From positions 972-64,971 of the forward strand of contig JBKPNH010000062.1 of NCBI GenBank assembly GCA_046732535.1: a stretch of DNA of 64,000 nucleotides, given 5' to 3'. Source of the stretch: Acidobacteriota bacterium. GTDB lineage: Bacteria > Acidobacteriota > Blastocatellia > Pyrinomonadales > Pyrinomonadaceae. The translations under genes were made by a program, and so were the position numbers. Shown here piece by piece: positions 12,690-47,974 of the stretch. Position 1 is the stretch's first letter; each line of letters starts with the position of its first letter. Below the pieces are notes generated by a model that worked only from the letters and a program-made list of their open reading frames with translations, ran no database searches and was not told where the DNA came from.

Positions 12690-12698
12690 TACTAAATA

Positions 12699-17226: not shown

Positions 17227-17295
17227 CGATGAATCCTCGGGCCAGGTTGTTGATGGTGCTTGAGAACGGCGTAGCATATGACGCCGGTCTTAATT

Positions 17296-29806: not shown

Positions 29807-29811
29807 TTTCG

Positions 29812-30945: not shown

Positions 30946-30952
30946 TATCCAC

Positions 30953-32248: not shown

Positions 32249-32275
32249 AATTCGTCATTATTAAAGAGGTACCTA

Positions 32276-32809: not shown

Positions 32810-32821
32810 TAAACTTCAATA

Positions 32822-33460
32822 ATGACTCTCTCCGGCTACGAAGCCCTCTTCTTCTGGATCTTCGCGCTGGCCGCGATCTTCGCGGGGTTGTTGACCGTGA
32901 TGGCGCGCAATGCGGTCCATAGTGCGCTATTTCTGATCTCGTCGCTGGTGTCGGTGGCCGCGCTGTTCGTGTTGGCGGGCGCGGAGTTCATCGCCGGCGT
33001 GCAGATCCTGGTCTATGTCGGCGGCGTGATGGTCCTGTTTCTGTTTGTGATCATGCTCGTCAACGTCGGCGCGGAAGAGAAAGGCCGCGACGAGATCTTC
33101 AACAAGCAGACGCAGGTCACCGCCAGTCTGATCTTCTGTTTCCTGTTAGTCGGCGGAGTGCTCTACGCAGTCAACAAGGGTTACGCGGGGTTACAAAAGA
33201 ATAACCCGACTCCTACGGAGCAACTAGCCCAACAGCAGGCTGCGAGAGAAGAGTCGCACCCGGTCTCCGCAACCCGAAGCAGCCGCATAACGGATGACAC
33301 TGAACGCGTCGGCGCCAGCCTTTATCGATACGCCTCGTTGCCTTTCGAAATCGCGAGCGTGTTGCTGCTGGTTGCCATCATCGGATCAGTGATGCTGGCG
33401 CGCACCTTGAAGCAGGAGGCTGCGGCTGACGACCTCGATCCCGACGAGCCAAGGTCATAG
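32822..33460 (+). CDS. nuoJ: NADH-quinone oxidoreductase subunit J
   Basis: Position in the operon, TM pattern, and [23 protein letters not shown]. Confidence 0.88.
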
Positions 33461-33465
33461 TAAAC

Positions 33466-33870
33466 ATGCTCAACTCTATCATCCCAACACTGGCGTTGTT
33501 TCAGGCGGTCGAAGGCGGACGCTGGGCGCAAACGTGGCACGCCGCGTCGCATCCCGATCTGTCGAAATTTCTCGTGATCGGTGCGCTGCTCTTCATCATC
33601 GGGGTTGCCGGAGTTTTGACGCGACGGAACATCATCGTGATCTTCATGTCCATCGAGTTGATACTGAACGCCGCGAACCTCAACTTCATCGCCTTCTCGC
33701 GCTACCTGGAGACGACCGGCAGCGTCAACGCGCTTGCTGGTCAGATCTTTGCAGTGTTCGTGATCGTCGTCGCGGCCGCGGAAGCGGCGATTGGTCTGGG
33801 AATCGTGATCGCGCTCTACCGGAACAAGGAAACGATCTGGGTTGACGAAATCGACTTGTTGAAGTGGTGA
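33466..33870 (+). CDS. nuoK: NADH-quinone oxidoreductase subunit K (about 30-aa N-terminal extension if the ATG at 33466 is used)
   Basis: [27 protein letters not shown]. Confidence 0.88.
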
Positions 33871-33871
33871 A

Positions 33872-36172
33872 ATGTACAAATACATTTGGCTAGTTCCCCT
33901 GCTACCACTGATCGGCGCGGCAATTAACGGCCTGCTGGGCCGCAAACTGCGCTTTTCGGAAAGGCTGATCGGCGGCATCGCTGTCGGATCGGTGGCGCTT
34001 GCTTTCCTCATCAGCGTTGCGGCTGTTTTTTCTTATGGAACCGGACACTGGCCCACGCCTTACTTAACAAGCCAGGACGGATTTAGTTTTGACTGGATTC
34101 CCGGTGGCGCCGTGAGCGTCAATCAAGGTTCCGAAGCGCGGGCGGGGGCGAAGCTTCACGACGAACAGGAACGACTGCATGCGATGACGCCGGAAGAGCG
34201 GGCCGAAGGTGGCTCGCGCTTCATCGCGACGAGTGAATCACCGCGTTACGTGCAGCTCGATATCAAGTGGAGCTATCAACTCGATCCGCTGTCGGCGATC
34301 TTCATGCTGATCGTCACCGGCGTCGGCTTGTGCATCTTCATCTTCGCCACCGGATACATGCACGGCGAGACCGGCTTCTACCGGTTCTTCGCGTACATGG
34401 GCCTGTTCATGTTCATGATGCTGGTGCTCGTGATGGGCTCGAACTTCCTGATGATGTTTGTCGGTTGGGAAGGCGTGGGTCTCTGTTCTTACCTGCTCAT
34501 CGGTTACTACTTCGATCGCCAGGAAGCCGCAAACGCGTCGCGCAAGGCGTTTATCACGAACCGCATCGGCGACTTCGGATTCGCGCTCGCGATCTTCGGC
34601 GTCATCGCCACGTTCGGCAGCCCCCAGTACGTCGACGTTTTCAACCAGGCGAAAGGCTACCCGGTGGAAACGCTCGGTCACTGGGGCCTCATGTCGTGGA
34701 TCGCGCTCGGACTGTTCGTCGGCGCCTGCGGTAAGTCGGCCCAACTTCCGCTGCACGTCTGGCTGCCCGATGCGATGGCGGGTCCGACACCCGTCTCGGC
34801 GTTGATTCACGCGGCGACGATGGTGACTGCCGGTCTCTACATGGTGACGCGAACGAACGTCATCTTCCAGCACTCGCAAACGATGCTGCTCGTCGTCGCA
34901 CTCGTCGGCACAGCGACCGCAATCTTCGCGGCGATCATTGGCATCACTCAAAACGATATCAAGAAGGTGCTGGCGTATTCGACCGTTTCGCAGCTCGGTT
35001 TCATGTTCATGGCGTGCGGCGTCGGCGCCTTCGCGATCGCCATCTTTCACGTGATGACGCACGCGTTCTTCAAAGCGCTGATGTTCCTCGGCGCGGGCAG
35101 CGTGATTCACGGTATGCACCACGAGCAGGACATGCGACGCATGGGCGGGTTGAAGAAGTACATGCCCTACACCTATTTGACGTTTCTTGCCGGTTGGTTG
35201 GCGATCTGCGGCATCATTCCGTTCAGCGGCTTCTGGTCCAAAGACGAGATCCTCTGGCAGGCCGCATCGACGACTCAGATCCCGCTCGGTTGGCTGGTGT
35301 GGCTGGTCGGCACGATCGCCGCGACGTGTACGGCGTTCTACATGACGCGCCTGATGGCGATGACCTTCTGGGGCAAGGAAAGGTTCCACGAAAAGCCGGA
35401 GACGCATGACATTCACGGCGGTGGCCATGAACATGCCGCGCATGTGCCGCACGAATCACCACCGTCGATGTGGGTGCCGTTGGTTGTACTGGCGGTGTTG
35501 GCGACGATCGGTGGATTGGTTGGTGTTGGCCCGGCATTTAAACCTATCACTGGCGCCGAGCACGCGGGTGGAAAATTGAATATCGTCAATTGGTTAAATC
35601 CAATCATTTGGAATCCAGAGACGCATGAATTCAAGGTTCCCGAAGCAGGTGAACACGGATCCGTGGTCGAACATGCCGCGCCCGCAGAGCACGATCACTT
35701 ATTAAAGGAATGGCTGTACATAATCATCTCGCTCGTGGCTGCCGGAATCGGCATCGGGTTGGGCATGCTCTTCTACGTCAAAAGTCCTGCTTTGCCGGAC
35801 ATCTGGGCGCGCCGCCTGCGGCCCTTGTATCAGGCGAGTTACAACAAGTTCTGGGTCGACGAATTTTACGGCTGGGCCGTCACGCGGCGCACGATGGATG
35901 CCGCGCGCGGTGTTTATGCTTTCGATTCGCGCCTTGTTGACGGCATCGTCAACGGCCTCGCGACGTTGAGCCGCGGTGTCAGCCGGATTGTCGGCGGCGT
36001 CGATAAATACCTCGTCGACGGAATCGTCAATAGCATCGCCGCCTTCATCAAGCGTTTGATGTCGCCGTTGTTCCGCGCGGCGCAGACGGGATTCACGCAA
36101 AACTACGCGCTCGTGATGGTGTTGGGACTAATGATAGCGGTAGTCATTTTCTTTGTGCGCGATATTTTCTGA
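33872..36172 (+). CDS. nuoL: NADH-quinone oxidoreductase subunit L (long form, 766 aa)
   Basis: Antiporter-like core WEGVGLCSYLLIGYY...KSAQLPLHVWLPDAMAGPTPVSALIHAATMVTAG. Confidence 0.93.
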   Translation: MYKYIWLVPLLPLIGAAINGLLGRKLRFSERLIGGIAVGSVALAFLISVAAVFSYGTGHWPTPYLTSQDGFSFDWIPGGAVSVNQGSEARAGAKLHDEQERLHAMTPEERAEGGSRFIATSESPRYVQLDIKWSYQLDPLSAIFMLIVTGVGLCIFIFATGYMHGETGFYRFFAYMGLFMFMMLVLVMGSNFLMMFVGWEGVGLCSYLLIGYYFDRQEAANASRKAFITNRIGDFGFALAIFGVIATFGSPQYVDVFNQAKGYPVETLGHWGLMSWIALGLFVGACGKSAQLPLHVWLPDAMAGPTPVSALIHAATMVTAGLYMVTRTNVIFQHSQTMLLVVALVGTATAIFAAIIGITQNDIKKVLAYSTVSQLGFMFMACGVGAFAIAIFHVMTHAFFKALMFLGAGSVIHGMHHEQDMRRMGGLKKYMPYTYLTFLAGWLAICGIIPFSGFWSKDEILWQAASTTQIPLGWLVWLVGTIAATCTAFYMTRLMAMTFWGKERFHEKPETHDIHGGGHEHAAHVPHESPPSMWVPLVVLAVLATIGGLVGVGPAFKPITGAEHAGGKLNIVNWLNPIIWNPETHEFKVPEAGEHGSVVEHAAPAEHDHLLKEWLYIIISLVAAGIGIGLGMLFYVKSPALPDIWARRLRPLYQASYNKFWVDEFYGWAVTRRTMDAARGVYAFDSRLVDGIVNGLATLSRGVSRIVGGVDKYLVDGIVNSIAAFIKRLMSPLFRAAQTGFTQNYALVMVLGLMIAVVIFFVRDIF

Positions 36173-36187
36173 TAACACGGATCTAAT

Positions 36188-37876
<1,689 letters not shown>

Positions 37877-37881
37877 AAGAG

Positions 37882-39453
37882 ATGCTTTTACAGGCAAACA
37901 CCACTTCGCTCATCAACGTCGCGGATCTGCAACTGATCGCGCCCGAGTTGATCCTTACTGCTTGCGCGTGCGTGGCGCTGGTGATGGAAGTCATACTTCC
38001 ATATCGCAAGAGCAAACTCACCGCCTACTTCTCGCTGATCGGCGTGGCACTCGCCTTCCTGTCGCTCGGGCTGCAATGGTGGTACATGGGGGTATCGCTG
38101 CCGTTCAATGGTTTCTACGGCATGGTCCGCATCGACGGCGTCGCACTGCTGTTCAAGGCGATCTTCCTGGTCGCGGCCGGACTCGCGATCGGCATCTCCA
38201 CGCGCTACCTCGATATCGAAGGCGAACAACACGGCGAGTACTACGCGCTGGTTCTCTTCGCCACCGTCGGCATGATGTTTATGGCCTGCGGTTACGATCT
38301 GATCTCGCTCTACATCAGTCTCGAGTTGATGGCGCTCACGTTCTACGTGCTGGTGGCCTTTACTAAACGTGAGAAGAGATCGAACGAAGCGGCGATGAAA
38401 TACTTTCTGCTCGGCGCCTTCTCGTCGGGCGTGCTGCTTTACGGTATGTCGTTGCTTTACGGCGTGGCCGGATCGACAAACATCGGGGATATCGGAACCA
38501 GCATCAGCGACTTGATGCCGAGGATTCAAACCGCGATTCAGGCCGGCCAAGCCGCCGGCGGAGTTCCGGACCAGCTCGCCGACCTGCGCCCGTTGTTGTT
38601 GTTGGCGATGATTGCGCTAGGCGCGGGGTTGTTCTTCAAAGTCGCGGCCGTGCCGTTTCACATGTGGGCGCCGGATGTTTACGAAGGCGCGCCGACGTCT
38701 GTCACGGCGTTCCTGTCGACTGGTTCGAAGGCCGCGAGCTTCGTGTTGTACTGGCGCGTTTTCAGCCAGGCGCTCGAGGGCATGCGCGCGGACTGGGCGC
38801 CGCTGCTCGGGCTCGTCGCGGCGATCACGATCATGGTCGGCAACTGGGCCGCCGTCACGCAGGACAACTCCAAACGGCTGCTCGCCTATTCGTCCATCTC
38901 GAACGCGGGCTATCTGCTGCTCGGGCTTGTCGCTCATAACGAATACGGCATGATTGGCCTGATCGTTTATCTGTTCGTCTACACGCTGATGAACATGGGC
39001 GCCTTCGGGATCATCATCAGTCTGCGGCGTCGGGGAATCATCGGCGACAACGTGGACGATCTGACCGGCCTCGGACAGAAGGCGCCGGTCATGGCGGCGA
39101 TGATGTCGATCTTCATGCTGTCGCTCGGCGGACTGCCGGTAACAGGCGGGTTCATCGGCAAGTACTTCCTGTTTGGTGGCCTGTTGCAACGAGGCCGGGC
39201 CGATAATAAGTACTGGTACTACGCACTCGCCGTTTGGGCTATTCTCAATACGGTCGTCTCCTTCTACTACTACTTCCGCTTCATCAAGGTGATGTATCTC
39301 GGCGACCGAGTCGCCGATAACAAGCCGCTGGCGCTCTCTCCGGCGCTACAAACGGCGCTGGCTGTGTCGGTGATCGGCGTGTTGGCGATCGGCGTCTATC
39401 CGCGCTGGATCATCCAGTTGACGCAAGAGCTGGTAAGGCCGTTGCTCAGGTAG
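37882..39453 (+). CDS. nuoN: NADH-quinone oxidoreductase subunit N
   Basis: FFKVAAVPFHMWAPDVYEGAPTSVTAFLSTGSKAA, last gene of the nuo block. Confidence 0.92.
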   Translation: MLLQANTTSLINVADLQLIAPELILTACACVALVMEVILPYRKSKLTAYFSLIGVALAFLSLGLQWWYMGVSLPFNGFYGMVRIDGVALLFKAIFLVAAGLAIGISTRYLDIEGEQHGEYYALVLFATVGMMFMACGYDLISLYISLELMALTFYVLVAFTKREKRSNEAAMKYFLLGAFSSGVLLYGMSLLYGVAGSTNIGDIGTSISDLMPRIQTAIQAGQAAGGVPDQLADLRPLLLLAMIALGAGLFFKVAAVPFHMWAPDVYEGAPTSVTAFLSTGSKAASFVLYWRVFSQALEGMRADWAPLLGLVAAITIMVGNWAAVTQDNSKRLLAYSSISNAGYLLLGLVAHNEYGMIGLIVYLFVYTLMNMGAFGIIISLRRRGIIGDNVDDLTGLGQKAPVMAAMMSIFMLSLGGLPVTGGFIGKYFLFGGLLQRGRADNKYWYYALAVWAILNTVVSFYYYFRFIKVMYLGDRVADNKPLALSPALQTALAVSVIGVLAIGVYPRWIIQLTQELVRPLLR

Positions 39454-39462: not shown

Positions 39463-40611
39463 GTGTATCTATACTACTTTCTCGCGGCGCTCGCCTGCTG
39501 GTTTGGTATTCAGTCTCTTTTAAATGGCCGTCGTTTCGCCGCCTACGTGCAGCGTGAGACGAGCCGTGCGCTGCCGGACTTCCGGCCGTTCGTTTCGGTG
39601 ATCGCCCCGACGCGCGGGTTCGAGCCGGGCTTTGAGGAAAACGTTCGACCGCTGCTCGAACAGGACTATCCCGCGTACGAAGTTCTGTTTGTGTTTGACG
39701 ATGCGACAGATCCGTCATTGGAAATCGCCCGACACCTGAACGCTAAAACAATAATCAGCGGCGCGGCAAAAAACACGGGGCAAAAGGTCCACAACCTGAT
39801 CGCGGCCGTCGACGAGATCGATCCACGCTGTGAAGTGCTCGTGTTTGTGGATACCGACGCCAGGCCGGACACAAATTGGTTGCGGAACCTGGTCGCGCCG
39901 CTCGCGGATGAAACGCTTGGCGCGTCGACTGGTTACCGTTGGTTTGTTCCCGAACGAGGCGGGCTGGCGTCGCGTCTGCGCAGCGTTTGGAATGCGTCGA
40001 TCGCGTCCGCACTCGGCGAGAACGGCGATAAGAATTTTTGCTGGGGCGGCTCGACGGCAGTTAGGCGCGCGACGTTCGAGCGATTGAACGTTGTGGGCCA
40101 TTGGCGCGGCACTGTTTCAGACGATTTCACGATCACCCGCGTGTTGAAAGAAGCGAAACTGCCAATCCACTTTACACCGAACTGTCTCGTGCCTTCGGTC
40201 GGCGACTGCGACTTTCGCGAACTGCTGGAGTTCACGACGAGGCAGGTAAAGATCACGCGTGTTTATGCGTCGCACCTGTGGCTGCCGCTGATGCTCGGGT
40301 CAGGACTATTTTGCATCGTGTTTTTTGGCGGCATCGTTCTGTTGATTATTAACGGCTGGGTGTCCGTTATATTGGCAATCCTGTTTCTCCTTGGAGCAGC
40401 GAAGAGTTTTATCCGCTGGCGGGCAGTCAATGGTCCGCAGATAAATCGCGATCTATGGGCGCATGTCTTTCTCTGGCCGTTTGCTTCGTTACTGTATTTT
40501 TACAACACCATCGTCGCCGGTTTCTCGCGGCGTATAAAATGGCGCGGCATTACCTATGAATTGAAATCACCCAGTGAAGCTGTCATTATCTCGCGTGAAC
40601 CTGCATCATGA
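39463..40611 (+). CDS. Family-2 glycosyltransferase, ceramide glucosyltransferase/HpnI-like, membrane-bound
   Basis: Acidic motifs VLFVFDD, FVDTDA and VSDDF, then FTTRQVKITRVY in place of (Q/R)xxRW. N- and C-terminal TM helices. GTG start 9 nt after the nuoN stop. Confidence 0.8.
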   Translation: MYLYYFLAALACWFGIQSLLNGRRFAAYVQRETSRALPDFRPFVSVIAPTRGFEPGFEENVRPLLEQDYPAYEVLFVFDDATDPSLEIARHLNAKTIISGAAKNTGQKVHNLIAAVDEIDPRCEVLVFVDTDARPDTNWLRNLVAPLADETLGASTGYRWFVPERGGLASRLRSVWNASIASALGENGDKNFCWGGSTAVRRATFERLNVVGHWRGTVSDDFTITRVLKEAKLPIHFTPNCLVPSVGDCDFRELLEFTTRQVKITRVYASHLWLPLMLGSGLFCIVFFGGIVLLIINGWVSVILAILFLLGAAKSFIRWRAVNGPQINRDLWAHVFLWPFASLLYFYNTIVAGFSRRIKWRGITYELKSPSEAVIISREPAS

Positions 40612-41726
40612 ATAAAGCGGTCCAATTTGTGCAGCTCCTGCGCTCGTCGAAACGTGAGAAACATCTCGGCACGGTGATTCTGTTCGTCACCTCCCGCTGC
40701 AACGCGCTTTGCCAGACGTGCTTCTATCACGCCGAGTTAAACCAGCCTGGCGACCTGACCTTCGCGCAACTCGAGAAAATCTCGCAAACGATGCCGCCGA
40801 TCACTGATCTCTGGCTGTCCGGCGGCGAGCCCACGTTGCGCGGCGACGTTTCGCAGGTGATCGATCTATTCGTCCAAAGCAACGGTGTCAACCGAGTCAT
40901 CATTCCCACTAACGGCCTGATCAAGTCGCGCGTGTTCGAGATCGTCGATCGCGCGCTCGGCAACAATCCCACGATCGATCTCTATCTCAATGTCGCGCTC
41001 GACGGTTACGGCGAGACTCACGATCGCATTCGCGGCGTACCCGGCAACTGGCAAAGAACGCTGGACTGTATCGAGTCGCTCTATCCGCTGAAGTCGAAAT
41101 ACACCGATCGCTTTCGTTTGAACGTCAACACCGTCGTCTGCGCAGCCAACTACACCGAGATCGAGATGCTCTCCGAGTTCATGTGGGCAAGCTACAAGCT
41201 CGACGGCCAGTACTTCAACATCGTTCGCGGTGAGACGCTCGTCGGCGACGAGATAAAACAAGTGCCGCCGGAAGTGCTGCCGGCGATGTACGCGCACGCC
41301 GCAAAACTGACGAAGCGTTACGGCGATCGCATGTTTGCCGGTGACGATGCCAGCAAGCGCTTCGTTAAGAACGCCGCTTACGTCGGCACGATCACGACGC
41401 ACTACCGTACGCAGCATGCGAACTTCCGCGATCCTACGCCATGGCCGTTTCCCTGCACGGCGGGCGAGACGACGGCCGTGATCGATTACAACGGCGACGT
41501 TCGCGCCTGCGAATTGCGCGAGAAGTTTGCGACGCTCAGCGATTTCGATTACGACTTCGGCGCGCTGTGGTCCGCTCACGCGCGCGACGCCGAGCTGGCG
41601 GCAATCGACGGCGGCAAGTCGTGCTGGTGTACTCACGTTTGTTTTATTCACGACTCGATGCGCCACTCGCGCCGCGCCTTGCTCTACGAGGTCCCTAAAA
41701 ACTTTCTTACCCGCGAAAGTTGGTGA
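40608..41726 (+). CDS. Radical SAM protein with a SPASM/twitch-like C-terminal Cys cluster
   Basis: CNALCQTC (CxxxCxxC) and SGGEPTL. C-terminal segment CTAGETTAVIDYNGDVRACE...CWCTHVC. The ATG overlaps the GT2 stop (ATGA). Confidence 0.85.
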   Translation: MNKAVQFVQLLRSSKREKHLGTVILFVTSRCNALCQTCFYHAELNQPGDLTFAQLEKISQTMPPITDLWLSGGEPTLRGDVSQVIDLFVQSNGVNRVIIPTNGLIKSRVFEIVDRALGNNPTIDLYLNVALDGYGETHDRIRGVPGNWQRTLDCIESLYPLKSKYTDRFRLNVNTVVCAANYTEIEMLSEFMWASYKLDGQYFNIVRGETLVGDEIKQVPPEVLPAMYAHAAKLTKRYGDRMFAGDDASKRFVKNAAYVGTITTHYRTQHANFRDPTPWPFPCTAGETTAVIDYNGDVRACELREKFATLSDFDYDFGALWSAHARDAELAAIDGGKSCWCTHVCFIHDSMRHSRRALLYEVPKNFLTRESW

Positions 41727-41729: not shown

Positions 41730-41969
41730 ATGCCTGAAGAACCAGGGTCCCCGAAGTCATCGCGGCGAGACCCGGAAGAGAACTTCAAGACGGGGTTAGC
41801 CTATGCTGCCGGGTTCACGCTGTTTGTGACAGTGGCCGCATTTACGGGGTTGGGCTGGTTCCTGGACAACTGGTTGGGCTGGCAGCCCTGGGGCTTGATC
41901 GGCGGCATCGTGGTTGGCTCAGCGGCGGGTCTTTACCAGTTTGTCCGTTTGAGTTCTAAGACGTATTAA
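41730..41969 (+). CDS. AtpZ/AtpI-family small membrane protein (putative F0F1-ATPase-associated)
   Basis: Two TM helices (GFTLFVTVAAFTGLGWFLD and WGLIGGIVVGSAAGLYQF) immediately upstream of atpI/atpB. Confidence 0.65.
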   Translation: MPEEPGSPKSSRRDPEENFKTGLAYAAGFTLFVTVAAFTGLGWFLDNWLGWQPWGLIGGIVVGSAAGLYQFVRLSSKTY

Positions 41970-41991
41970 ATTAAAATCGGCGGCTTTGTTA

Positions 41992-42393
41992 ATGGCCGAT
42001 TCTTCAAGCAACGCCCTCAATTTGCGGGTTTTCCGGACGATGGCGATTGCCACGGGTGTCAGTGTGGCTGTGTCTGCTTTCATTGGGCCATGGCGAGTCA
42101 CCACCGGTCTGCTGGTGGGTGGGCTGCTGGCGTTGTTCAGTCATCATTGGTTGAAAAACTCCGCCGCGGCCGCGATTCAGTTGTCGGTGGGCGGCGGCAC
42201 GCCGAAGTTACGGTTGATGCAGTTCATGCTGCGTTACGTCGTAATCGCGGCGATCGTGTTTTCGCTTTATCAACTCGATCTGTTGTCGTTACCTGCGGTC
42301 CTGTCGGGTATGTCGAGTTTTGTCGTAGCAATATTCGTTGAAGCTTTAAGAGAGTTTTATTTCGCAATCATCCAGCGAGAGGAAATCAGTTGA
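41992..42393 (+). CDS. atpI: ATP synthase protein I-like membrane protein
   Basis: Four hydrophobic helices directly preceding atpB. ATG at 41992 is preferred over TTG at 41986. Confidence 0.55.
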   Translation: MADSSSNALNLRVFRTMAIATGVSVAVSAFIGPWRVTTGLLVGGLLALFSHHWLKNSAAAAIQLSVGGGTPKLRLMQFMLRYVVIAAIVFSLYQLDLLSLPAVLSGMSSFVVAIFVEALREFYFAIIQREEIS

Positions 42394-43307
42394 TGTTTTG
42401 GTTGGACGAAGCTGCCCATCAAACAGCCGAGCACGGGGAAGAGGCGGCCCATCACACACCGATCATTGTCCAGCTTGTGAACGACTGGTTTGGTGAGGCT
42501 GCTCTTCATTTCGAGCTGAAGTACACCAAACCGATCTGGGACAAAGTGCTGGGCTACTTCGGCACCACGCCGGAAGCCGCCTTCGGACCTTACACCGCCG
42601 AGACCGCGATACCGTGGTACACGGTGATGTTCTTCATCGCGTGCATCCTGAGCGTTGTGATCATCTGGATCCTGAAAGGTAAGTTGTCAGAATCCGAGCC
42701 GGGCGGCGGACAGCAGACTCTCGAAGTCAGCGTGCTGTCGGTGCGGAGCATGATCGAAGACATCATCGGCCCACACGGGTTGAAGTACTTCCCGGTGGTG
42801 TTGACGTTCGCGACGCTGATCCTGGTGTCGAACCTGATGGGACTGTTCCCACTGTTCATGAGCCCCACGGCGGCGACGAGTGTTACGTTCGCTCTCGGGC
42901 TGAGCTCCTTTCTTTATTACAACTACATCGGTATCAGCGAGAACGGGATACTCCAGCACTTGAAGCATCTCGGTGGACCAGTCTGGTGGATCGCGTGGTT
43001 GATCTTTCCGATCGAGTTGATCAGTAACCTGATTCGTCCGTTCTCGCTCGGCATCCGTCTGTTCGGCAACTTGTTCGCGGATGAGCAGGTGATGGTGACG
43101 TTGGCGGGACTGGCGCCGCCGTACACCTGGTTTGCGCCGATCCTGTTGATGCCGTTGAGCGTCTTCGTGGCCCTGATTCAGACGTTCGTTTTCATATTGC
43201 TGTCGCAGCTTTACATCAGCGAGGTCTCGCACGCGCCGCACGCTCATGGCGAGCACGCCCATGGGCACGACGAGGGCGACGAGATGATCGCGCCAGTCTT
43301 GACTTAA
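42393..43307 (+). CDS. atpB: F0F1 ATP synthase subunit a
   Basis: IRPFSLGIRLFGNLFADE (conserved Arg helix) ...QTFVFILLSQLYI. The ATG overlaps the atpI TGA. Confidence 0.9.
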   Translation: MFWLDEAAHQTAEHGEEAAHHTPIIVQLVNDWFGEAALHFELKYTKPIWDKVLGYFGTTPEAAFGPYTAETAIPWYTVMFFIACILSVVIIWILKGKLSESEPGGGQQTLEVSVLSVRSMIEDIIGPHGLKYFPVVLTFATLILVSNLMGLFPLFMSPTAATSVTFALGLSSFLYYNYIGISENGILQHLKHLGGPVWWIAWLIFPIELISNLIRPFSLGIRLFGNLFADEQVMVTLAGLAPPYTWFAPILLMPLSVFVALIQTFVFILLSQLYISEVSHAPHAHGEHAHGHDEGDEMIAPVLT

Positions 43308-43572
43308 ATTGGCTTTATCCAAGCGCGCGGCGAGCGATGCGGCAGACGCGCCCGCACACGTTGCCACGCAATACAGATTGCTTTCGATCACCCATTCCGT
43401 CAGCACCAGGCAAGTCATAAGCTTCGGTTTTGTTGAAGCAGGTCCTGTCTGTATCGCAGGAGCGCCGTTGTAAGAGGGGCGGTGGATACCGGATGCAGGC
43501 GAAATAATAAGCGCCTCGTGCGACCGGCCATGTGGTCCAGCAGCAATCTAAAACCTGATTGAAGGAGGAACT

Positions 43573-43917
43573 ATGGGCAAATTCAGAATGCTCCTGTTCG
43601 TCGTCGCCGGCATTCTCATGAGTGCGATGACTGCGTTTGCGCAAGCCGAAGGCGCTGGCGCCGGTGACAATGTGTTTTCCGTGAACAAGTATCGGGCGAT
43701 TGCCGCCGGCATCGGGTTCGCTATCGCCGTGCTGGGTGGCGCTCTCGGTCAGTCGCGGATTGGCGCCGCGGCGTGCGAAGGTGCGGCCCGGAATCCCGGC
43801 GCGGCCGGTCGTATCCAAACGATGATGATTCTTGGTTTGGCGCTGATCGAGTCGTTGGTGCTGTTCGCGCTGCTGGTGGTATTTGCGGTAGTGAAGGGAA
43901 CCGGAAGCCCAACCTAA
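43573..43917 (+). CDS. atpE: F0F1 ATP synthase subunit c with a signal-peptide-like N-terminal extension
   Basis: Core GIGFAIAVLGGALGQSRIGAAACEGAARNP...ILGLALIESLVLFALLV. GAAGGAGG lies 5 nt before the ATG. Confidence 0.88.
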   Translation: MGKFRMLLFVVAGILMSAMTAFAQAEGAGAGDNVFSVNKYRAIAAGIGFAIAVLGGALGQSRIGAAACEGAARNPGAAGRIQTMMILGLALIESLVLFALLVVFAVVKGTGSPT

Positions 43918-43954
43918 GCCGCTAAATCGGAATCAAAGCCGTTTCTATGAGTGC

Positions 43955-43992
43955 GGGCGAGAGATTTTCCGTCTCTCGCCCGTCTCTTTGTT
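43955..43992 (+). terminator. Rho-independent terminator after atpE
   Basis: gggcgagag pairs with ctctcgccc (9-bp stem, 9-nt loop), followed by a T-rich gtctctttgtt. Confidence 0.6.
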
Positions 43993-44038
43993 GACCCGGC
44001 ATTAACCCGGATGGAATAATCGAAGGCGCGGCAAAAAG

Positions 44039-45661
44039 ATGAAAAAATGTCCGAAGTGTGGAGTTGAGTATTCTGATATGACGACGCTGTGTCCTAACGA
44101 CGGCGTCGCGCTGGAAACCACTGACGACGCACTTCTTGGCACCATCCTCGCCGGAAAATACCGTATCGACAAACGCCTCAACCAGGGCGGAATGGGCAGT
44201 GTTTACCAGGGCACGCACGTGCTGATGGACAAGACTGTGGCCATCAAGGTGCTGCGCCCCTCGCTCGCCGCCGACGAGAAGATCGTCGCCCGCTTTTCGC
44301 GCGAGGCACGCGCCGCCTCGCGTATTTCACACCCAAACGCTTTGAGCGTCACGGACTTCGGCGAGGACGACAACGGCACCGTCTTTCTCGTGATGGAATT
44401 TTTGAGCGGCAGGACGCTCAAACAGGTGATTCGAGACGAGGGCCCGTTGCCGCTGCCGAGAATCGTCGAGATCACACGCCAGGTTGGCGACGCGCTGGCC
44501 GCCGCCCACGCACAGGGCGTCGTACACCGCGATCTGAAGAGCGACAACATCATGTTGCTCGATATGACCACCGCCGGCGATTACGCGAAAGTGCTCGACT
44601 TCGGCATCGCGAAGATCAACGAGGCCGACGGAAAATTCGACGGCGGATTGACGGCGCCGAACCTCGTGATCGGCACGCCGCAATACATGTCGCCCGAGCA
44701 GTGCTCGCAGGATTCGGAGATCGACGCGCGGTCCGATATTTATTCATTCGGCGTGATTCTTTTCGAGATGCTCGTCGGTCACGTCCCTTTTTCCGGCGAC
44801 TCCGCGACGATCGTGATGATGAAGCACCTGCAGGATCCGGTGCCGTCGGTGTTGGAAGAACGGCCTGACGTGCCGCCGCCGGTGGGCCGTGTGATCGCGC
44901 GCGCGATGGCCAAGGTGCCGGACAATCGCTATCAGAACGTCGCGGAGTTGATCGAAGATCTGACGATCGCTTCGGGAATGATCGTGCCGGTTCCGGTGCC
45001 GCAGCCAGGAAAGAGTGCGGCCGGCCGGTCCACTACCAGCGGACGCGACGCGGATGATGAAGTCACGGTGGTGAGACCGCGCGAGGAGTATCCGGCCGCG
45101 GCTCCCATGCCTTCTGTCGTTCCTCGGCGCGCGCCTGTTACGGTCCCAGTTCAACCGGTGGGCGGTGCGCAGGTTACCGGCGGCAGTTTCAATCCCTGGA
45201 AGATACTGATTCCTTCCGCGATAGCGTTGCTGGTGATCTTCGCCGGCATTTACGCGTGGACGGCGCGCAACCCGACCGTCGATGCCACGAACACGAACGC
45301 GAACCAGTCAAATCAAACACTCGCTGCCGATCCAAACAGTCAGCCGGTGCAACCCGCGCAATCGCCAACGGGTAAAGCCGAACAAGGACTGCCTTCAGGT
45401 GGCGCGATCAATCCTTCCGCCAACGCCAACGTCAACGCCTCGCCAAACGCGAATGCTGAACAGGAGCCGACGCCGATCGAAGACGTCAGCCCTGATGCGA
45501 ATGCGAATCAGAACGCGAACAGCAACACCAATACGAACAGCAATCGCAAAGCGCCTCCATTGCCGGAGCCTACGCGCAGTGTCGTGCCCGGGAACGTCCC
45601 GGTTCCGACGCCCGAGGCGACGAAACCCCCGGCACCGTCTCCTACACCTTCACCGAATTAA
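44039..45661 (+). CDS. Ser/Thr protein kinase with an N-terminal zinc ribbon, one TM and an Asn/Ala/Pro-rich extracytoplasmic tail
   Basis: CPKCGVEYSDMTTLCPNDG; GGMGSVY...AIKVL; HRDLKSDN; DFGIAK; GTPQYMSPEQ; TM IPSAIALLVIFAGIYAW. Confidence 0.9.
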   Translation: MKKCPKCGVEYSDMTTLCPNDGVALETTDDALLGTILAGKYRIDKRLNQGGMGSVYQGTHVLMDKTVAIKVLRPSLAADEKIVARFSREARAASRISHPNALSVTDFGEDDNGTVFLVMEFLSGRTLKQVIRDEGPLPLPRIVEITRQVGDALAAAHAQGVVHRDLKSDNIMLLDMTTAGDYAKVLDFGIAKINEADGKFDGGLTAPNLVIGTPQYMSPEQCSQDSEIDARSDIYSFGVILFEMLVGHVPFSGDSATIVMMKHLQDPVPSVLEERPDVPPPVGRVIARAMAKVPDNRYQNVAELIEDLTIASGMIVPVPVPQPGKSAAGRSTTSGRDADDEVTVVRPREEYPAAAPMPSVVPRRAPVTVPVQPVGGAQVTGGSFNPWKILIPSAIALLVIFAGIYAWTARNPTVDATNTNANQSNQTLAADPNSQPVQPAQSPTGKAEQGLPSGGAINPSANANVNASPNANAEQEPTPIEDVSPDANANQNANSNTNTNSNRKAPPLPEPTRSVVPGNVPVPTPEATKPPAPSPTPSPN

Positions 45662-46634
45662 GAACCAGTCGAATCAGATCTGCTGCGTCGTCGATTTCCG
45701 GTTCGATCTCCAGAACGAAATACGGAAGTGAAAACGAGATTGAGTGCAGCTTGACTGCGTCTTTGGCAGTCGTGATGAAACTCTTCGCGCCTGCGTGTCT
45801 CGCTGTTTCAGTTAATGAATCGATATCGGATTGTGAATAGCGGTGATGATCGGGAAAGGTTTTTCGTAAAACGATTTCGTGTGGGATCTGGTTGAAGAAG
45901 GAACGTGGATTACCAACACCGCAAAAGGCCGCAACTGGAGAGGGAATTGTTTCACACGGATTTTTGATCCGCATTTGTGATTGGAATATCGGGATCTCAC
46001 CCGCGTGACGACGGATCTGCTCGCGAAGGGCGTCGATGTTGTTGGCCTGGTCGGTGCGCGTAATGACAACGCAGTCAGCGCGGCTGAGACCGCTCAAAGG
46101 CTCGCGCAAACGCCCGTACGGCAGCAGGTGTCCGCCGCCCCACGGGTTCGTCGCGTCGATGGTAACGATGTTCAGGTCGCGCTGAAGGCGCAAGTGTTGA
46201 AAGCCGTCGTCGAGTACAAAGCAATCCGTTCCTAAATGCTTGATTGCTCCGTTGGCGGCTTCGATGCGATCCGCATTGCTGATCACGGCGGCTATGCCTG
46301 CCAGGTTGGTTGCCAGCAGAAACGGCTCGTCGCCGGCTTCAGATGGAGTCGCCAGGACCTTCGTTCCATCTGACACGACGACCTGACGATCGGGATTGTC
46401 GCGGCCGTAGCCGCGCGTCAGGATGCAGACCTTCCTGCCTGCGCCGGCAAGAGTGCGCGCGACCCACTCGACGAGCGGCGTCTTGCCGGTCCCGCCGGTT
46501 GTGATGTTGCCGACGCTGATGACAGGACGATCGAGTTTTGTCGATTGAAAAGTTCCGCGGCGGTAGAGCGACAGGCGCGTTCGTGTGACGGCGCCGTACA
46601 GAACGCTCAGTGGCGGAAGAATCAGCGACCTCAT
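45642..46634 (-). CDS. lpxK: Tetraacyldisaccharide 4'-kinase
   Basis: VGNITTGGTGKTPLVEW P-loop context. Overlaps the waaA stop. Confidence 0.9.
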   Translation of the reverse strand: MRSLILPPLSVLYGAVTRTRLSLYRRGTFQSTKLDRPVISVGNITTGGTGKTPLVEWVARTLAGAGRKVCILTRGYGRDNPDRQVVVSDGTKVLATPSEAGDEPFLLATNLAGIAAVISNADRIEAANGAIKHLGTDCFVLDDGFQHLRLQRDLNIVTIDATNPWGGGHLLPYGRLREPLSGLSRADCVVITRTDQANNIDALREQIRRHAGEIPIFQSQMRIKNPCETIPSPVAAFCGVGNPRSFFNQIPHEIVLRKTFPDHHRYSQSDIDSLTETARHAGAKSFITTAKDAVKLHSISFSLPYFVLEIEPEIDDAADLIRLVLNSVKV

Positions 46635-47974
46635 GAAGTCTGAGCGTTGGCGGCGAGAAGGGAATTTGATTCCGATCGATCGGGTTGCTTCAGCGATAGA
46701 AGCGGCGCGATTAGCTTGATCGTTCGTTCAGCCGCGCCCTGGTTGTCGAGAACGAGTTGTTTAGCGCGAGCGGCGAGCTCAGACCGGCGATCAGGGTCTG
46801 ACAGTAACTCGGTGAACACCCTTGCGAGCTCGTTAGAGGCGGCTTCGTCCGGCAACGGCGGCAACTGAATAATCGCATTCGCTTCGTTCAGTAGATCGAT
46901 GATCGCGTGGAAGTTATGCGTGTGGGCGCCTGTTACGACAGGCGCGCCCATTGCCGCCGGCTCGAGCACGTTATGACCACCGCGATCGACGATGCTGCCG
47001 CCGACGAAAACCACGGATGCAAGCGAGTATGTGGCCGGTAGCTCACCGATCGTATCGAGCAGGATCACGCGCGCACTCGCATCAGACGCATCCGGTACGT
47101 TTGTTCGTCGTGCCCAACTCAATCCCGAGTCCCGGATCAACGAAGCGACTTCCTGAAAGCGTTCCGGATGCCTAGGCGCGAGCATCAAACGTGCCTGACC
47201 GTTGAGCTGTTTGAAGCTTTCGAGAATGATCTTCTCTTCCGGCGCGTGGGTGCTCGCCGCGAGAATCAGCGGCACGCCGGAATCCAACGCAAACCGCTCG
47301 CGGATCTCGGAAGTCTTCTCCGCCGCTGAAGAAACGGCGCCGGCGTCAAACTTCAGATTTCCCGCCGTGTGGATCCGGTCTGCGGGCATACCCAAATCCC
47401 GCAGCCGGCCGGCGTCGACTTCAGACTGCATGACCGCGATGTTCAAGCACCGCAGCATTCGACCCAGGAAGAACCTGATCGCCGAGTAGCGTCGAAACGA
47501 CTCGCGCGAAATCCGTCCGTTCACCAGCGCCACCGGAATCTCACGCGCCTGGCACTCCCGCAGGAAGTTGGGCCACAACTCCGTCTCCATGATCAGCACG
47601 GCGTCCGGGTTGATCCCTCGCAACGCGCGGCGGGCAGTCCAGCGCCAGTCAAATGGAAAGTAGAAGATGCTGTGCGCGTGCTTGCCGAAGACGTCGCGCG
47701 CCAGTTTTTGTCCGGTGAGTGTGATAGTGGAGACGACGAGCGCGTGGTGCGGAAACTCGCGCTTGATCCGTTCCACTAACGGCCGCGCCGCCTGCGTCTC
47801 GCCCACCGAAACACAGTGCAGCCAGATCACGGGATGCTGATCGATAGGAGGAATGGCACCAAAGCGTTGGCGCAAACCTTCGACGTATTTGCCGTGCGCC
47901 AACGCTTGAAACAGGAAGTGAGGGATTAGAACGAGAAGGCCGAGCGATAACAGGAGGCTGTAAGCCAGGTACAT
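46631..47974 (-). CDS. waaA: 3-deoxy-D-manno-octulosonic acid (Kdo) transferase
   Basis: IWLHCVSVGETQAARPL, N-terminal anchor, GT-B C-terminal half. Confidence 0.9.
   Translation of the reverse strand: MYLAYSLLLSLGLLVLIPHFLFQALAHGKYVEGLRQRFGAIPPIDQHPVIWLHCVSVGETQAARPLVERIKREFPHHALVVSTITLTGQKLARDVFGKHAHSIFYFPFDWRWTARRALRGINPDAVLIMETELWPNFLRECQAREIPVALVNGRISRESFRRYSAIRFFLGRMLRCLNIAVMQSEVDAGRLRDLGMPADRIHTAGNLKFDAGAVSSAAEKTSEIRERFALDSGVPLILAASTHAPEEKIILESFKQLNGQARLMLAPRHPERFQEVASLIRDSGLSWARRTNVPDASDASARVILLDTIGELPATYSLASVVFVGGSIVDRGGHNVLEPAAMGAPVVTGAHTHNFHAIIDLLNEANAIIQLPPLPDEAASNELARVFTELLSDPDRRSELAARAKQLVLDNQGAAERTIKLIAPLLSLKQPDRSESNSLLAANAQTS

What the first reader, a model, noticed from the sequence alone, without database searches (positions are those of the whole stretch)
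39463..41726. GT2 glycosyltransferase + radical SAM/SPASM pair embedded between complex I and ATP synthase Fo genes; second candidate system
From nuoC (28659) to atpB (43307) all genes are on one strand with gaps of 27 nt or less, most of them under 15 nt or overlapping. Inside this respiratory super-cluster sit two genes. One is a polytopic ceramide-glucosyltransferase/HpnI-like GT2 (motifs FVFDD, VDTD, SDD), starting 9 nt after nuoN. The other overlaps it (ATGA at 40608) and is a radical SAM enzyme (CNALCQTC) with a C-terminal auxiliary Cys cluster; it ends 3 nt before atpZ. A membrane GT paired with a SPASM/twitch radical SAM recalls sugar-modifying pairs (HpnI/HpnJ in hopanoid head-group synthesis; BtrN-type sugar dehydrogenases). 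That suggests synthesis of a modified glycolipid or glyco-conjugate. Co-transcription with energy-converting complexes is unusual and hints at a lipid or cofactor tailored to them.
Basis: partly seen in the sequence, partly recalled or inferred. Interest (0 to 1): 0.65.

Follow-up and report, generated by a model that had tools for sequence, protein, structure and literature searches.

The report
Membrane glycosyltransferase plus sugar-editing radical enzyme
Two overlapping genes in a soil acidobacterium (family Pyrinomonadaceae) encode a membrane sugar-transferase and a radical SAM enzyme that most likely build and then chemically edit a sugar-bearing membrane lipid; the pair is real, conserved and uncharacterised, but its position between respiratory genes is mostly a family-specific gene order.

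Summary
A 382-aa polytopic GT2/GT21 (HpnI-like) glycosyltransferase (39463-40611) overlaps by ATGA a 372-aa radical SAM enzyme (40608-41726). The pair sits between nuoN and atpZ-atpI-atpB-atpE with gaps of 9 and 3 nt. The only strong terminator-like hairpin comes after atpE.

The two genes form a module:
- They are adjacent in all 73 of 80 related species loci that reach upstream of the rSAM gene.
- They are adjacent in distant clades (rSAM 40-51% identity).
- Their divergence is correlated (Spearman 0.88).
- More distant rSAM homologues are fused to GT2 or GT4 domains, or flanked by glycosyltransferases.

The rSAM has one twitch-like auxiliary Cys cluster, not a full SPASM domain. It has no B12 domain, so it is not HpnJ. 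It has no close solved or curated relative.

The respiratory link is weaker than proposed. Pyrinomonas methylaliphatogenes has topA upstream instead of nuo. Restriction-modification genes are inserted between nuoN and the GT in two loci examined. Distant clades carry the pair next to panBC/mqn or phosphatase genes. Only the small atpZ-like gene always follows the pair in Blastocatellia.

Best reading: an uncharacterised glycolipid head-group pathway, analogous to HpnI/HpnJ or calditol synthesis. The chemistry is unknown. Interest is moderate.

The parts
39463..40611 (+). Polytopic GT2/GT21-type (HpnI-like, ceramide-glucosyltransferase-like) membrane glycosyltransferase, 382 aa, GTG start
   Evidence: - Pfam: PF13641, PF00535 and PF13506 above cut-offs.
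- NCBIfam HpnI: E 2e-33 over the full length, but 115 bits against a cut-off of 310.
- Full-length alignment to human ceramide glucosyltransferase 26qf, E 1e-9, with D1/D2/D3 aligned.
- AF2 model with pLDDT 83.8: N-terminal helix, GT-A domain and C-terminal helices 251-354.
- Hydrophobic block at residues 269-319.
40608..41726 (+). Soluble radical SAM enzyme, 372 aa, with CX3CX2C (C31/C35/C38) and a twitch-like auxiliary Cys cluster (C283-X12-G296-X4-C301 ... C339-X-C341-X3-C345); start overlaps the GT stop (ATGA)
   Evidence: - PF04055 at 36.4 bits, above the 29.5 cut-off.
- All NCBIfam hits are far below their cut-offs.
- The Cys residues are conserved in 100 homologues.
- AF2 model with pLDDT 94.9.
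- Foldseek best matches are SkfB, BlsE, SuiB, anSME, MoaA and DesII, with TM-scores of 0.58 or less.
- No TM segment.
41730..41969 (+). atpZ-like small two-helix membrane protein (PF09527), 79 aa; possibly a third member of the module, otherwise the first gene of the Fo operon
   Evidence: - PF09527, E 1e-10.
- It follows the rSAM at a median alignment gap of 12 nt in 79 loci.
- It stays behind GT-rSAM in L098, L100, L102, L104, L109, L131 and L134, where no atpI/B/E follows (up to about 8 kb examined); DUF1800/DUF1501 were identified downstream in L100.
37882..39453 (+). nuoN, last gene of the nuoC-N cluster; context, not part of the module
   Evidence: - TIGR01770 at 422 bits, above the 332.6 cut-off.
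- The link to the GT is broken in Pyrinomonas K22 and by restriction-modification insertions in L058 and L075.
41986..43917 (+). atpI (41986-42393), atpB (42390-43307), atpE (43573-43917): Fo genes downstream; context
   Evidence: PF03899, PF00119 and PF00137.
43953..43983 (+). Strongest terminator-like hairpin in the 27-46 kb region (13-bp stem, 8 GC pairs); probable end of the transcription unit
   Evidence: No comparable site lies between nuoN, GT, rSAM and atpZ. A promoter-like site at 43991-44020 precedes the Ser/Thr kinase gene.

Best explanation
The GT and the rSAM form a two-enzyme module that makes a modified glycolipid in the cytoplasmic membrane.

Step 1 (inferred from homology). 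The polytopic GT21/HpnI-type transferase uses a nucleotide sugar at its cytoplasmic GT-A domain. It glycosylates a hydroxyl of a membrane lipid, such as diacylglycerol or the glycerol-ether or iso-diabolic-acid lipids typical of subdivision-4 acidobacteria.

Step 2 (inferred). The soluble radical SAM enzyme cleaves SAM at its CX3CX2C cluster and abstracts a hydrogen from the sugar ring. Helped by one auxiliary [4Fe-4S] cluster in a twitch-like domain, it edits the head group. Possible reactions are oxidation or epimerisation (BtrN/SpeY/HygY-type), decarboxylation (BlsE-type), or ring contraction to a cyclitol (as proposed for HpnJ and Cds). The order of the two steps could be reversed, with the rSAM acting on the nucleotide sugar first.

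Shown here: the gene pair is real, translationally overlapped, vertically co-inherited and under strong purifying selection. The wider rSAM family is repeatedly fused or adjacent to glycosyltransferases.

In this organism the pair is probably transcribed with nuoC-N and atpZIBE. That is a family-level operon arrangement, not evidence that the product serves the respiratory complexes.
For: Pair conservation:
- GT-rSAM adjacency in all 73 of 80 GTDB species loci that reach upstream of the rSAM gene; the alignment gap has a median of 13.5 nt and a maximum of 239 nt over the 74 loci where it could be measured.
- Adjacency persists in clades with 40-51% rSAM identity: L081-L083, L095, L099, L110, L117-L119, L145, L148, and the P0391 and P0416 loci.
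- GT and rSAM identities co-vary (Spearman 0.88, 90 pairs).

Link to glycosyltransferases across the family:
- Rosetta-stone fusions: 7 of 7 tested N-terminally extended homologues are GT2-rSAM, and one is rSAM-GT4.
- The fusions and distant members sit in glycan clusters.
- 12 of 32 immediate neighbours of distant members are GT2 and 3 are GT28-like.

The GT looks like a lipid glycosyltransferase:
- Its best characterised relatives act on lipids: HpnI E 2e-33 over the full length and human glucosylceramide synthase over the full length.
- The Trp of the (Q/R)XXRW motif found in processive synthases is absent.

The rSAM:
- Invariant CX3CX2C plus C-X12-G-X4-C ... CXCX3C.
- Confident model whose nearest folds include the sugar- or nucleotide-acting twitch enzymes BlsE, DesII, MoaA, SpeY and BtrN.
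- No TM segment.
- Median identity 84.5%, like NuoM (85.9%) and AtpE (82.1%).
Against: - No biochemical data exist, and the lipid acceptor and the reaction type are guesses.
- Foldseek places the GT model closest to hyaluronan and cellulose synthases (TM 0.65-0.68), so a polysaccharide product is not excluded. The GCS structures seem to be absent from that library.
- The nearest rSAM folds also include peptide maturases (SkfB, SuiB, anSME).
- The distant family members act in polysaccharide clusters, not obviously in lipid clusters.
- About a dozen homologues at 39-44% identity have no GT neighbour; they lie next to NifU_N/DUF6659 or NUDIX genes.
- The high rSAM identity in L001-L080 is partly inflated, because those loci were ranked by rSAM similarity.
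Confidence: 0.5

Rival explanations
1. The pair makes or edits a secreted or cell-envelope polysaccharide. The GT is a small processive synthase (HAS/PgaC/NodC-like) and the rSAM modifies the sugar units.
For: - The best structural matches of the GT model are Chlorella virus hyaluronan synthase and BcsA.
- There is a weak PgaC hit.
- Distant rSAM homologues lie in Wzx/Wzy, GT4, GT9 and deacetylase clusters.
Against: - By sequence the GT is much closer to HpnI (E 2e-33, full length) and GCS than to PgaC (E 3e-8, partial).
- At 382 aa it has fewer helices than channel-forming synthases.
- The RW of QXXRW is replaced by KI.
- No export or polymerase genes lie near the pair in any GT21-type locus.
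Confidence: 0.17
2. The module is functionally tied to energy conversion. Together with the atpZ-like protein, its product (a lipid, a glycoconjugate or a modified quinone) is needed by ATP synthase Fo, complex I or the menaquinone pool.
For: - Tight packing between nuoN and atpZ, with no terminator before 43953.
- GT-rSAM-atpZ-like is invariant across three different Blastocatellia arrangements, including loci without atpIBE.
- Other clades place the rSAM next to VitK2_biosynth (MqnA/D) genes (L094, L095, L110, P0416 locus) or just downstream of frdA/frdB-type genes (L137, L139, L143).
Against: - The nuo link is lost in Pyrinomonas K22 and interrupted by restriction-modification insertions.
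- Several clades show no respiratory genes at all.
- The frd loci have a 458-nt gap (L137) or an intervening opposite-strand gene (L143).
- The mqn genes come after panBC, which looks like a housekeeping string.
- No known quinone or ATP synthase pathway uses a GT plus an rSAM.
Confidence: 0.1
3. The rSAM acts on lipid tails. It would be the missing acidobacterial enzyme that couples two iso-C15 chains into iso-diabolic acid (Tes/Mss-like chemistry), and the GT supplies or decorates the lipid substrate.
For: - The best PDB sequence hit of the single protein is GDGT-MAS/Tes 7tol (E 2.8e-6); the Tes family model scores 40.8 bits.
- No Mss homologues were found in Acidobacteria, although SD1, 3, 4 and 6 make iso-diabolic acid (PMC13159169). 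A May 2026 paper (PMC13274423) names no acidobacterial coupling enzyme either.
- The gene is highly conserved in a family known for these lipids.
Against: - The similarity to Tes covers only the generic core (residues 25-110), and 40.8 bits is far below the cut-off of 450.
- The protein is 372 aa with one twitch-like cluster, against about 500 aa for Tes (526 aa in the 7tol chain).
- GDGT-MAS is not among the top 50 structural matches.
- Family-wide fusion and adjacency to glycosyltransferases points to sugar chemistry, not alkyl chemistry.
- Presence in SD1 and SD3 producers was not shown.
Confidence: 0.06
4. The rSAM is a peptide or protein maturase (RiPP-like, or modifying the adjacent AtpZ-like protein) and the GT glycosylates the same substrate.
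For: - The top structural and profile hit is SkfB; SuiB, anSME, PqqE and the epimerase EpeE/YydG are also found.
- A small ORF (atpZ-like) always follows the rSAM in Blastocatellia.
Against: - The atpZ-like protein is an ordinary PF09527 two-helix membrane protein, not a leader-core peptide.
- No RiPP recognition element, protease or transporter is present.
- Clades lacking atpZ still keep GT-rSAM.
- The GT is of a lipid-acting type.
Confidence: 0.04

Closest known systems
HpnI / HpnK / HpnJ (bacteriohopanetetrol glucosamine to cyclitol ether)
   Same: - A polytopic GT2 lipid glycosyltransferase is paired with a radical SAM enzyme proposed to edit the lipid-linked sugar.
- The GT here has HpnI as its best curated relative (E 2e-33, full length).
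   Different: - The score of 115 bits is far below the HpnI cut-off of 310.
- The rSAM has no B12-binding domain and is about 100 aa shorter than HpnJ (from my own knowledge of HpnJ).
- No deacetylase, shc or other hpn genes are nearby.
- Subdivision-4 acidobacteria other than Chloracidobacterium make no hopanoids (PMC5462960).
Calditol synthase Cds (Sulfolobus) acting after a glucosyltransferase
   Same: The proposed logic is the same: a hexose is put on a membrane lipid, then a radical SAM enzyme abstracts a ring hydrogen and contracts the sugar to a cyclitol (PMC13459092, PMC9385802).
   Different: - Cds is archaeal and acts on GDGTs.
- Homology to Cds could not be tested here because no sequence was available.
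- No evidence exists for cyclitol lipids in Pyrinomonadaceae.
GT21 lipid glycosyltransferases: eukaryotic glucosylceramide synthase and, from my own knowledge, the processive diacylglycerol glycosyltransferases (Pgt) of Agrobacterium and Mesorhizobium
   Same: - Same length and architecture.
- PF13506 scores above its cut-off.
- D1/D2/D3 acidic motifs align with human GCS over residues 38-369.
   Different: - The similarity is remote (phmmer E 1e-9, 40.9 bits).
- The RW of (Q/R)XXRW is replaced by KI.
- GT21 enzymes are not known to work with a radical SAM partner.
Twitch-domain sugar and cyclitol radical SAM enzymes (BtrN, SpeY, HygY) and BlsE
   Same: - A CX3CX2C core plus a short C-terminal domain with a C...GX4C...CXXC-type single auxiliary cluster.
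- The substrates of those enzymes are sugars or aminocyclitols.
- BlsE is the second-best structural match (TM 0.56/0.63), and SpeY and BtrN are also found.
   Different: - Identity is 10-18%, with TM-scores (normalised to the query) of 0.30-0.56.
- The twitch family model NF033640 scores 38 bits against a cut-off of 170.
- Those enzymes act on soluble antibiotic intermediates and are not paired with membrane GTs.
Tes / GDGT-MAS and bacterial Mss (membrane-spanning lipid synthases)
   Same: They are radical SAM enzymes acting on membrane lipids. GDGT-MAS gives the best single-sequence PDB hit.
   Different: - Only the generic N-terminal core aligns.
- The score is 40.8 bits against a cut-off of 450.
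- The C-terminal domains, cluster content and size differ.

Membership tests
Glycosyltransferase family 2 (GT-A fold) | Pfam PF00535/PF13641 above the gathering score; acidic DXD-type motifs in a GT-A domain | tested here: met
   - PF00535 at 42.7 bits (cut-off 23.3) and PF13641 at 43.7 bits (cut-off 27).
- FDD, VDTD and SDD motifs present.
- The AF2 model shows alternating beta-alpha elements at residues 44-247.
GT21 (ceramide glucosyltransferase-like) | PF13506 above the gathering score; D1, D2, D3 and the (Q/R)XXRW motif | tested here: inconclusive
   - PF13506 at 40.9 bits (cut-off 21.7).
- D1, D2 and D3 align with human GCS.
- At the (Q/R)XXRW position the sequence is R-Q-V-K-I: the first R is kept and RW is lost.
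HpnI (TIGR03472 equivalog) | Score of at least 310 bits; genomic and organismal context of hopanoid synthesis (shc, hpnH/G/J/K) | tested here: not met
   - 115.5 bits.
- No hpn or shc genes were seen among the window ORFs scanned (one search lists only the 25 most frequent families).
- SD4 acidobacteria including Pyrinomonas lack hopanoids and their genes (PMC5462960).
Radical SAM superfamily | CX3CX2C cluster motif and PF04055 above the gathering score | tested here: met
   - C31-X3-C35-X2-C38 is invariant in 78 sequences.
- PF04055 at 36.4 bits (cut-off 29.5).
- The GGEP SAM-binding motif is invariant.
SPASM domain (PF13186; two auxiliary clusters) | Seven-Cys motif CX9-15GX4C - gap - CX2CX5CX3C - gap - C | tested here: not met
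   - PF13186 does not hit the window protein.
- Only C283, C301, C339, C341 and C345 are present.
- The first half (C-X12-G-X4-C) is present, but the second half is CXCX3C.
- SPASM is detected in three fused homologues.
Twitch-domain radical SAM enzymes (one auxiliary cluster; BtrN, MoaA, SkfB type) | Truncated SPASM-like beta-hairpin with 3-4 Cys binding a single auxiliary cluster | tested here: inconclusive
   - The Cys pattern and the predicted strands at 289-299 followed by helices fit.
- SkfB, MoaA and BtrN are structural matches.
- NF033640 scores only 38.4 bits against a cut-off of 170.
- Cluster content needs spectroscopy.
HpnJ (TIGR03471; B12-binding radical SAM) | N-terminal cobalamin-binding domain plus the rSAM core | tested here: not met
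   - No B12-binding Pfam domain; the rSAM core starts at residue 27 of 372.
- HpnJ is not among the 25 best NCBIfam hits.
Tes / GDGT-MAS (NF045702) | Score of at least 450 bits; full-length match including the SPASM and lipid-binding domains | tested here: not met
   - 40.8 bits, covering residues 19-127 only.
- The PDB alignment is limited to residues 25-106.
AhbD heme b synthase ('Fe-coproporphyrin III synthase', the name JGI gives many homologues) | TIGR04545 score of at least 500 bits | tested here: not met
   43.1 bits. The JGI name is best treated as an over-annotation.
Calditol synthase Cds | Sequence homology to Saci_1489 | not testable with these tools

The most novel reading that the evidence does not exclude
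GT, rSAM and the atpZ-like membrane protein form a three-gene unit. It would make a previously undescribed, radically edited glycolipid head group, for example a carbocyclic cyclitol or a keto or epimerised sugar. That would be a third, independently evolved case after HpnI/HpnJ and Cds. The lipid would be specifically needed by, or co-regulated with, the proton-translocating machinery of Blastocatellia.
Probability: 0.15. Interest if true: 0.75.

Novelty: new variant of a known kind. Interest (0 to 1): 0.45.

Why it matters
- Pyrinomonadaceae are well represented in soil metagenomes and in the MAGs recovered here, and their membrane lipids (iso-diabolic acid, glycerol ethers) underlie widely used palaeoclimate proxies. 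Their lipid head-group biosynthesis is almost unknown.
- The rSAM is as conserved as core respiratory subunits, which suggests the product is important to the cell.
- If the rSAM edits a lipid-linked sugar, it would define a new functional subfamily of twitch radical SAM enzymes. That subfamily includes natural GT-rSAM fusions found across many metagenomes.
- It would also add a bacterial counterpart to the poorly understood HpnJ and Cds reactions, neither of which has been reconstituted in vitro.
- A cultured strain, Pyrinomonas methylaliphatogenes K22, carries the module, so the question can be tested directly.

Tried and rejected
- **HpnI/HpnJ membership rejected.** The GT scores below the HpnI cut-off, the rSAM has no B12 domain, and the clade makes no hopanoids (PMC5462960).
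- **Tes/Mss and AhbD identities rejected.** Scores are about ten times below the cut-offs and only the core aligns.
- **Sequence and structure searches gave no functional assignment.**
  - PDB by sequence with the single protein and with the family profile found only generic rSAM cores.
  - Foldseek on the rSAM model found no match above TM 0.58.
  - Foldseek on the GT model returned hyaluronan and cellulose synthases and not GCS, probably because the new GCS entries are missing from that library. It therefore did not separate a lipid from a polysaccharide acceptor.
- **The genome-contig scan** returned only close Pyrinomonadaceae relatives, so the distribution in subdivisions 1, 3 and 6 could not be assessed.
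- **Two of three homologue searches** listed only near-identical proteins.
- **A literature search for Pyrinomonas glycolipids** returned nothing relevant, and the calditol synthase paper is not held.
- **The promoter scan is uninformative:** 6 sites found against 7.7 expected.
It was rerun with a shallower alignment.
Full report
**1. Observation.** The ORF map, the translations and the junction sequences confirm every coordinate in the finding.
- nuoN ends at 39453.
- A 382-aa ORF starts with GTG at 39463. Its homologues start MYxYYFLAAL at the same place.
- Its TGA stop overlaps the ATG of a 372-aa ORF (ATGA at 40608-40611).
- That ORF ends at 41726, 3 nt before a 79-aa ORF at 41730.
- Pfam and NCBIfam identify the flanks as nuoN, an atpZ-type protein (PF09527), atpI, atpB, atpE and a Ser/Thr kinase.
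- Upstream lie nuoC, nuoD, nuoH, nuoJ, nuoK, nuoL and nuoM. The 177-aa ORF at the nuoI position (32276-32809) was not individually identified.
- G+C content across the pair (0.565) matches the flanks, so nothing suggests recent transfer.
- Best hits place the window in Pyrinomonadaceae (Acidobacteriota, Blastocatellia, 'subdivision 4').

**2. The glycosyltransferase.**
- It passes the Pfam cut-offs for GT2 families and for GT21.
- Its best curated relative is HpnI, the hopanoid-polyol GlcNAc transferase (E 2e-33, full length). The score of 115 bits is far below the equivalog cut-off of 310.
- Its best solved relative by sequence is human glucosylceramide synthase, aligned over residues 38-369 with the three acidic motifs in register. 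At the (Q/R)XXRW position the sequence is RQVKI.
- An AlphaFold model (pLDDT 83.8) shows a long N-terminal helix, a GT-A domain and C-terminal helices. Hydropathy gives a strong membrane block at 269-319.
- Foldseek against the PDB returns hyaluronan synthase (TM 0.65-0.68), an archaeal mannosyltransferase and BcsA. The recent GCS entries do not appear in that library, so this result does not separate lipid from polymer acceptors.
- Subdivision-4 acidobacteria other than Chloracidobacterium have neither hopanoids nor hpn genes (PMC5462960). The enzyme therefore cannot be doing HpnI's job.

**3. The radical SAM enzyme.**
- Only PF04055 passes its cut-off. All 46 NCBIfam hits are 5- to 15-fold below their cut-offs.
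- In 100 and 78 family members the invariant or near-invariant residues are C31/C35/C38, GGEP, C283, G296, C301, C339, C341 and H343. C345 is 83% conserved.
- This gives C-X12-G-X4-C followed by CXCX3C: the first half of a SPASM motif plus a short second half. That fits a single auxiliary cluster (twitch-like).
- The AlphaFold model is confident (pLDDT 94.9). No PDB structure matches better than TM 0.58 at 17% identity. The list mixes peptide maturases (SkfB, SuiB, anSME) with sugar- or nucleotide-acting enzymes (BlsE, MoaA, DesII, viperin, SpeY, BtrN).
- A family profile searched against PDB sequences matches only rSAM cores.
- The protein has no membrane segment.
- The name 'Fe-coproporphyrin III synthase' that JGI gives many homologues is not supported: AhbD scores 43 bits against a cut-off of 500.

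**4. Are the two genes a unit?** Yes.
- In 80 species-level loci from GTDB, all Pyrinomonadaceae or Blastocatellia, every one of the 73 that reach upstream of the rSAM gene has the GT directly upstream. The alignment gap, measurable in 74 loci, has a median of 13.5 nt and a maximum of 239 nt.
- The pairing persists in much more distant clades:
  - rSAM 46-51% identity: L081-L083, the P0391 locus, the P0416 locus, L095, L099, L110 and L148.
  - rSAM 40-45% identity: L117-L119 and L145.
- GT and rSAM identities to the window proteins co-vary across 90 loci (Spearman 0.88). That is what vertical co-inheritance predicts.
- A search of 1.8 billion representatives found 452 relatives at E of 1e-30 or below.
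- All seven tested hits with an N-terminal extension of about 280-375 residues ahead of the rSAM match are GT2-rSAM fusions, and one hit is an rSAM-GT4 fusion.
- A GT2 fusion sits in a glycan cluster with GT2, GT4, GT9, deacetylase and methyltransferase genes. The GT4 fusion is followed by a PMT_2 gene.
- A 39%-identity member lies between a GT4 and a GT2 gene in a Wzx/Wzy cluster.
- Of 32 immediate neighbours of members at 28-37% identity, 12 are GT2 and 3 are GT28-like.
- The family as a whole therefore works with glycosyltransferases, which points to sugar chemistry.
- One subgroup at 39-44% identity lacks a GT neighbour. It lies next to NifU_N/DUF6659 or NUDIX genes instead.

**5. Is the respiratory context meaningful?**
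- In the window there is no room for a promoter at either junction. The only strong terminator-like hairpin in 27-46 kb is at 43953-43983, after atpE. A promoter-like site before the kinase gene follows it. Co-transcription from nuoC to atpE is plausible here.
- The order nuoL-M-N-GT-rSAM-atpZ-I-B-E-kinase recurs, wherever the contigs reach, in all 80 GTDB loci.
- The nuo link is not obligatory:
  - Pyrinomonas methylaliphatogenes K22 has dprA-topA-GT-rSAM-atpZ-I-B-E.
  - 14 of 64 loci have more than 300 nt between nuoN and the GT. In L058 and L075 that space holds a DNA methyltransferase and a putative restriction enzyme.
- The atpIBE link is not obligatory either. In seven loci (L098, L100, L102, L104, L109, L131, L134) GT-rSAM-atpZ-like has no atpI/B/E downstream (up to about 8 kb examined). 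In L100 the downstream genes are DUF1800 and DUF1501.
- Outside Blastocatellia the pair sits after an endonuclease/exonuclease/phosphatase-family gene, or before panB-panC and a VitK2_biosynth (MqnA/D) gene.
- Two observations keep a small door open:
  - The atpZ-like gene is the one invariant neighbour in Blastocatellia.
  - Unrelated clades place rSAM homologues near mqn genes (L094, L095, L110, P0416 locus) or just downstream of frdA/frdB-type genes (L137, L139, L143). The frd loci, however, have a 458-nt gap (L137) or an opposite-strand gene (L143) in between.

**6. Mechanism.** The best-supported model is a glycolipid pathway.
- A GT21/HpnI-type transferase puts a sugar on a membrane lipid hydroxyl.
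- The soluble twitch-type rSAM then abstracts a hydrogen from the sugar and oxidises, epimerises, decarboxylates or ring-contracts it.
- Precedents for 'lipid GT, then rSAM on the head group' are HpnI/HpnK/HpnJ and the glucosyltransferase/Cds route to calditol. In both, the rSAM step is genetic inference only (PMC13459092, PMC9385802).
- Precedents for twitch enzymes on sugars and cyclitols are BtrN, SpeY and HygY, plus BlsE (my own knowledge).
- A 2026 review of lipid-modifying rSAM enzymes lists nothing resembling this pair.
- I give this model 0.5.
- Rivals and their weights:

| Rival | Weight |
|---|---|
| Polysaccharide product | 0.17 |
| Real functional tie to energy conversion or quinones | 0.10 |
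| Missing acidobacterial iso-diabolic-acid synthase | 0.06 |
| Peptide maturation | 0.04 |

- The iso-diabolic-acid rival is attractive because no Mss homologue exists in Acidobacteria (PMC13159169, PMC13274423). The evidence for it is only generic core similarity to Tes.

**7. Selection.** Across L001-L080 the median identities to the window proteins are as follows.

| Protein | Median identity (%) |
|---|---|
| rSAM | 84.5 |
| NuoM | 85.9 |
| AtpE | 82.1 |
| AtpB | 80.7 |
| NuoN | 79.8 |
| GT | 67.3 |
| AtpZ | 64.1 |

The loci were ranked by rSAM similarity, so the rSAM figure is somewhat inflated. Even so, the enzyme is clearly under strong constraint.

**8. Verdict.**
- The pair is a genuine, conserved, uncharacterised module belonging to a wider family of GT-associated radical SAM enzymes.
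- The proposed special relationship with the respiratory complexes is largely a family-specific gene order.
- It is a new variant of a known kind (GT plus rSAM head-group or sugar editing), of moderate interest.
- It can be tested directly in the cultured strain K22.

Noticed in passing
L098, L100, L102, L104, L109, L131, L134 (e.g. L100:6673-13233): In a sub-lineage with rSAM 76-78% identity, the atpZ-like gene (PF09527) stays directly behind GT-rSAM. No atpI/atpB/atpE follows (up to about 8 kb examined); in L100 the downstream genes are DUF1800 and DUF1501. The atpZ-like gene may belong to the GT-rSAM unit and not to the Fo operon.
   Followed up: partly
L058:7141-8667 and L075:7227-8771: A DNA methyltransferase (DPPY motif) and a 202-aa putative restriction enzyme are inserted between nuoN and the GT. 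Fourteen of 64 loci have more than 300 nt at this junction.
   Followed up: partly
L094:9061-9900; L095:4511-5389; L110:7995-8849; P0416 locus: VitK2_biosynth (MqnA/MqnD, futalosine-pathway menaquinone synthesis) genes lie directly after, or a few genes after, rSAM homologues in two different clades. In one of those clades they come behind panB-panC.
   Followed up: partly
L137:4811-7525, L139:21-2588, L143:3890-6616: Fumarate reductase/succinate dehydrogenase flavoprotein and Fe-S subunit genes lie just upstream of rSAM homologues at 36-37% identity. A GT28/EryCIII-like glycosyltransferase gene lies downstream of related rSAM homologues in L136 and L140. In L137 a 458-nt gap separates the frd genes from the rSAM gene; in L143 an opposite-strand gene does.
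   Followed up: no
L087:279-656; neighbours in L118-L128, L135, L138 (alignment A3): rSAM homologues at 39-45% identity are flanked by a small gene of 112-146 aa on the opposite strand. It matches NifU_N (4 cases) or DUF6659 (6 cases) and may be a dedicated Fe-S scaffold. In L087/L088 a NUDIX hydrolase gene follows the rSAM.
   Followed up: partly
window 28638-39453: This nuo cluster runs nuoC-D-H-(I)-J-K-L-M-N. No nuoA or nuoB lies upstream (a CHAP-domain gene is there instead) and there is no nuoE/F/G. The nuoC ORF has an N-terminal extension of about 130 aa without a Pfam match. An 83-aa ORF without a match (29555-29806) sits between nuoC and nuoD.
   Followed up: no
window 45642-47974 (- strand): lpxK (tetraacyldisaccharide 4'-kinase) and waaA/kdtA (Kdo transferase), two lipid A/LPS core genes, converge on the Ser/Thr kinase gene downstream of the atp genes.
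   Followed up: no
window 44039-45661: A PknB-type Ser/Thr kinase gene follows atpE wherever the contig extends far enough in the Pyrinomonadaceae loci, including strain K22. In the window it has its own promoter-like site (43991-44020) after the terminator-like hairpin.
   Followed up: no
window about 8900-17300: Family counts indicate a phosphate-uptake and regulation cluster: PBP_like_2, BPD_transp_1, ABC_tran, PhoU, a response regulator and a histidine kinase. A large TonB-type outer-membrane barrel gene is at 4604-8437. Individual genes were not mapped.
   Followed up: no
homologues P0021, P0027, P0052, P0391, P0511 etc.: JGI labels many members of this rSAM family 'Fe-coproporphyrin III synthase' (AhbD). 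The AhbD model scores 43 bits against a cut-off of 500, so this looks like a propagated over-annotation.
   Followed up: yes
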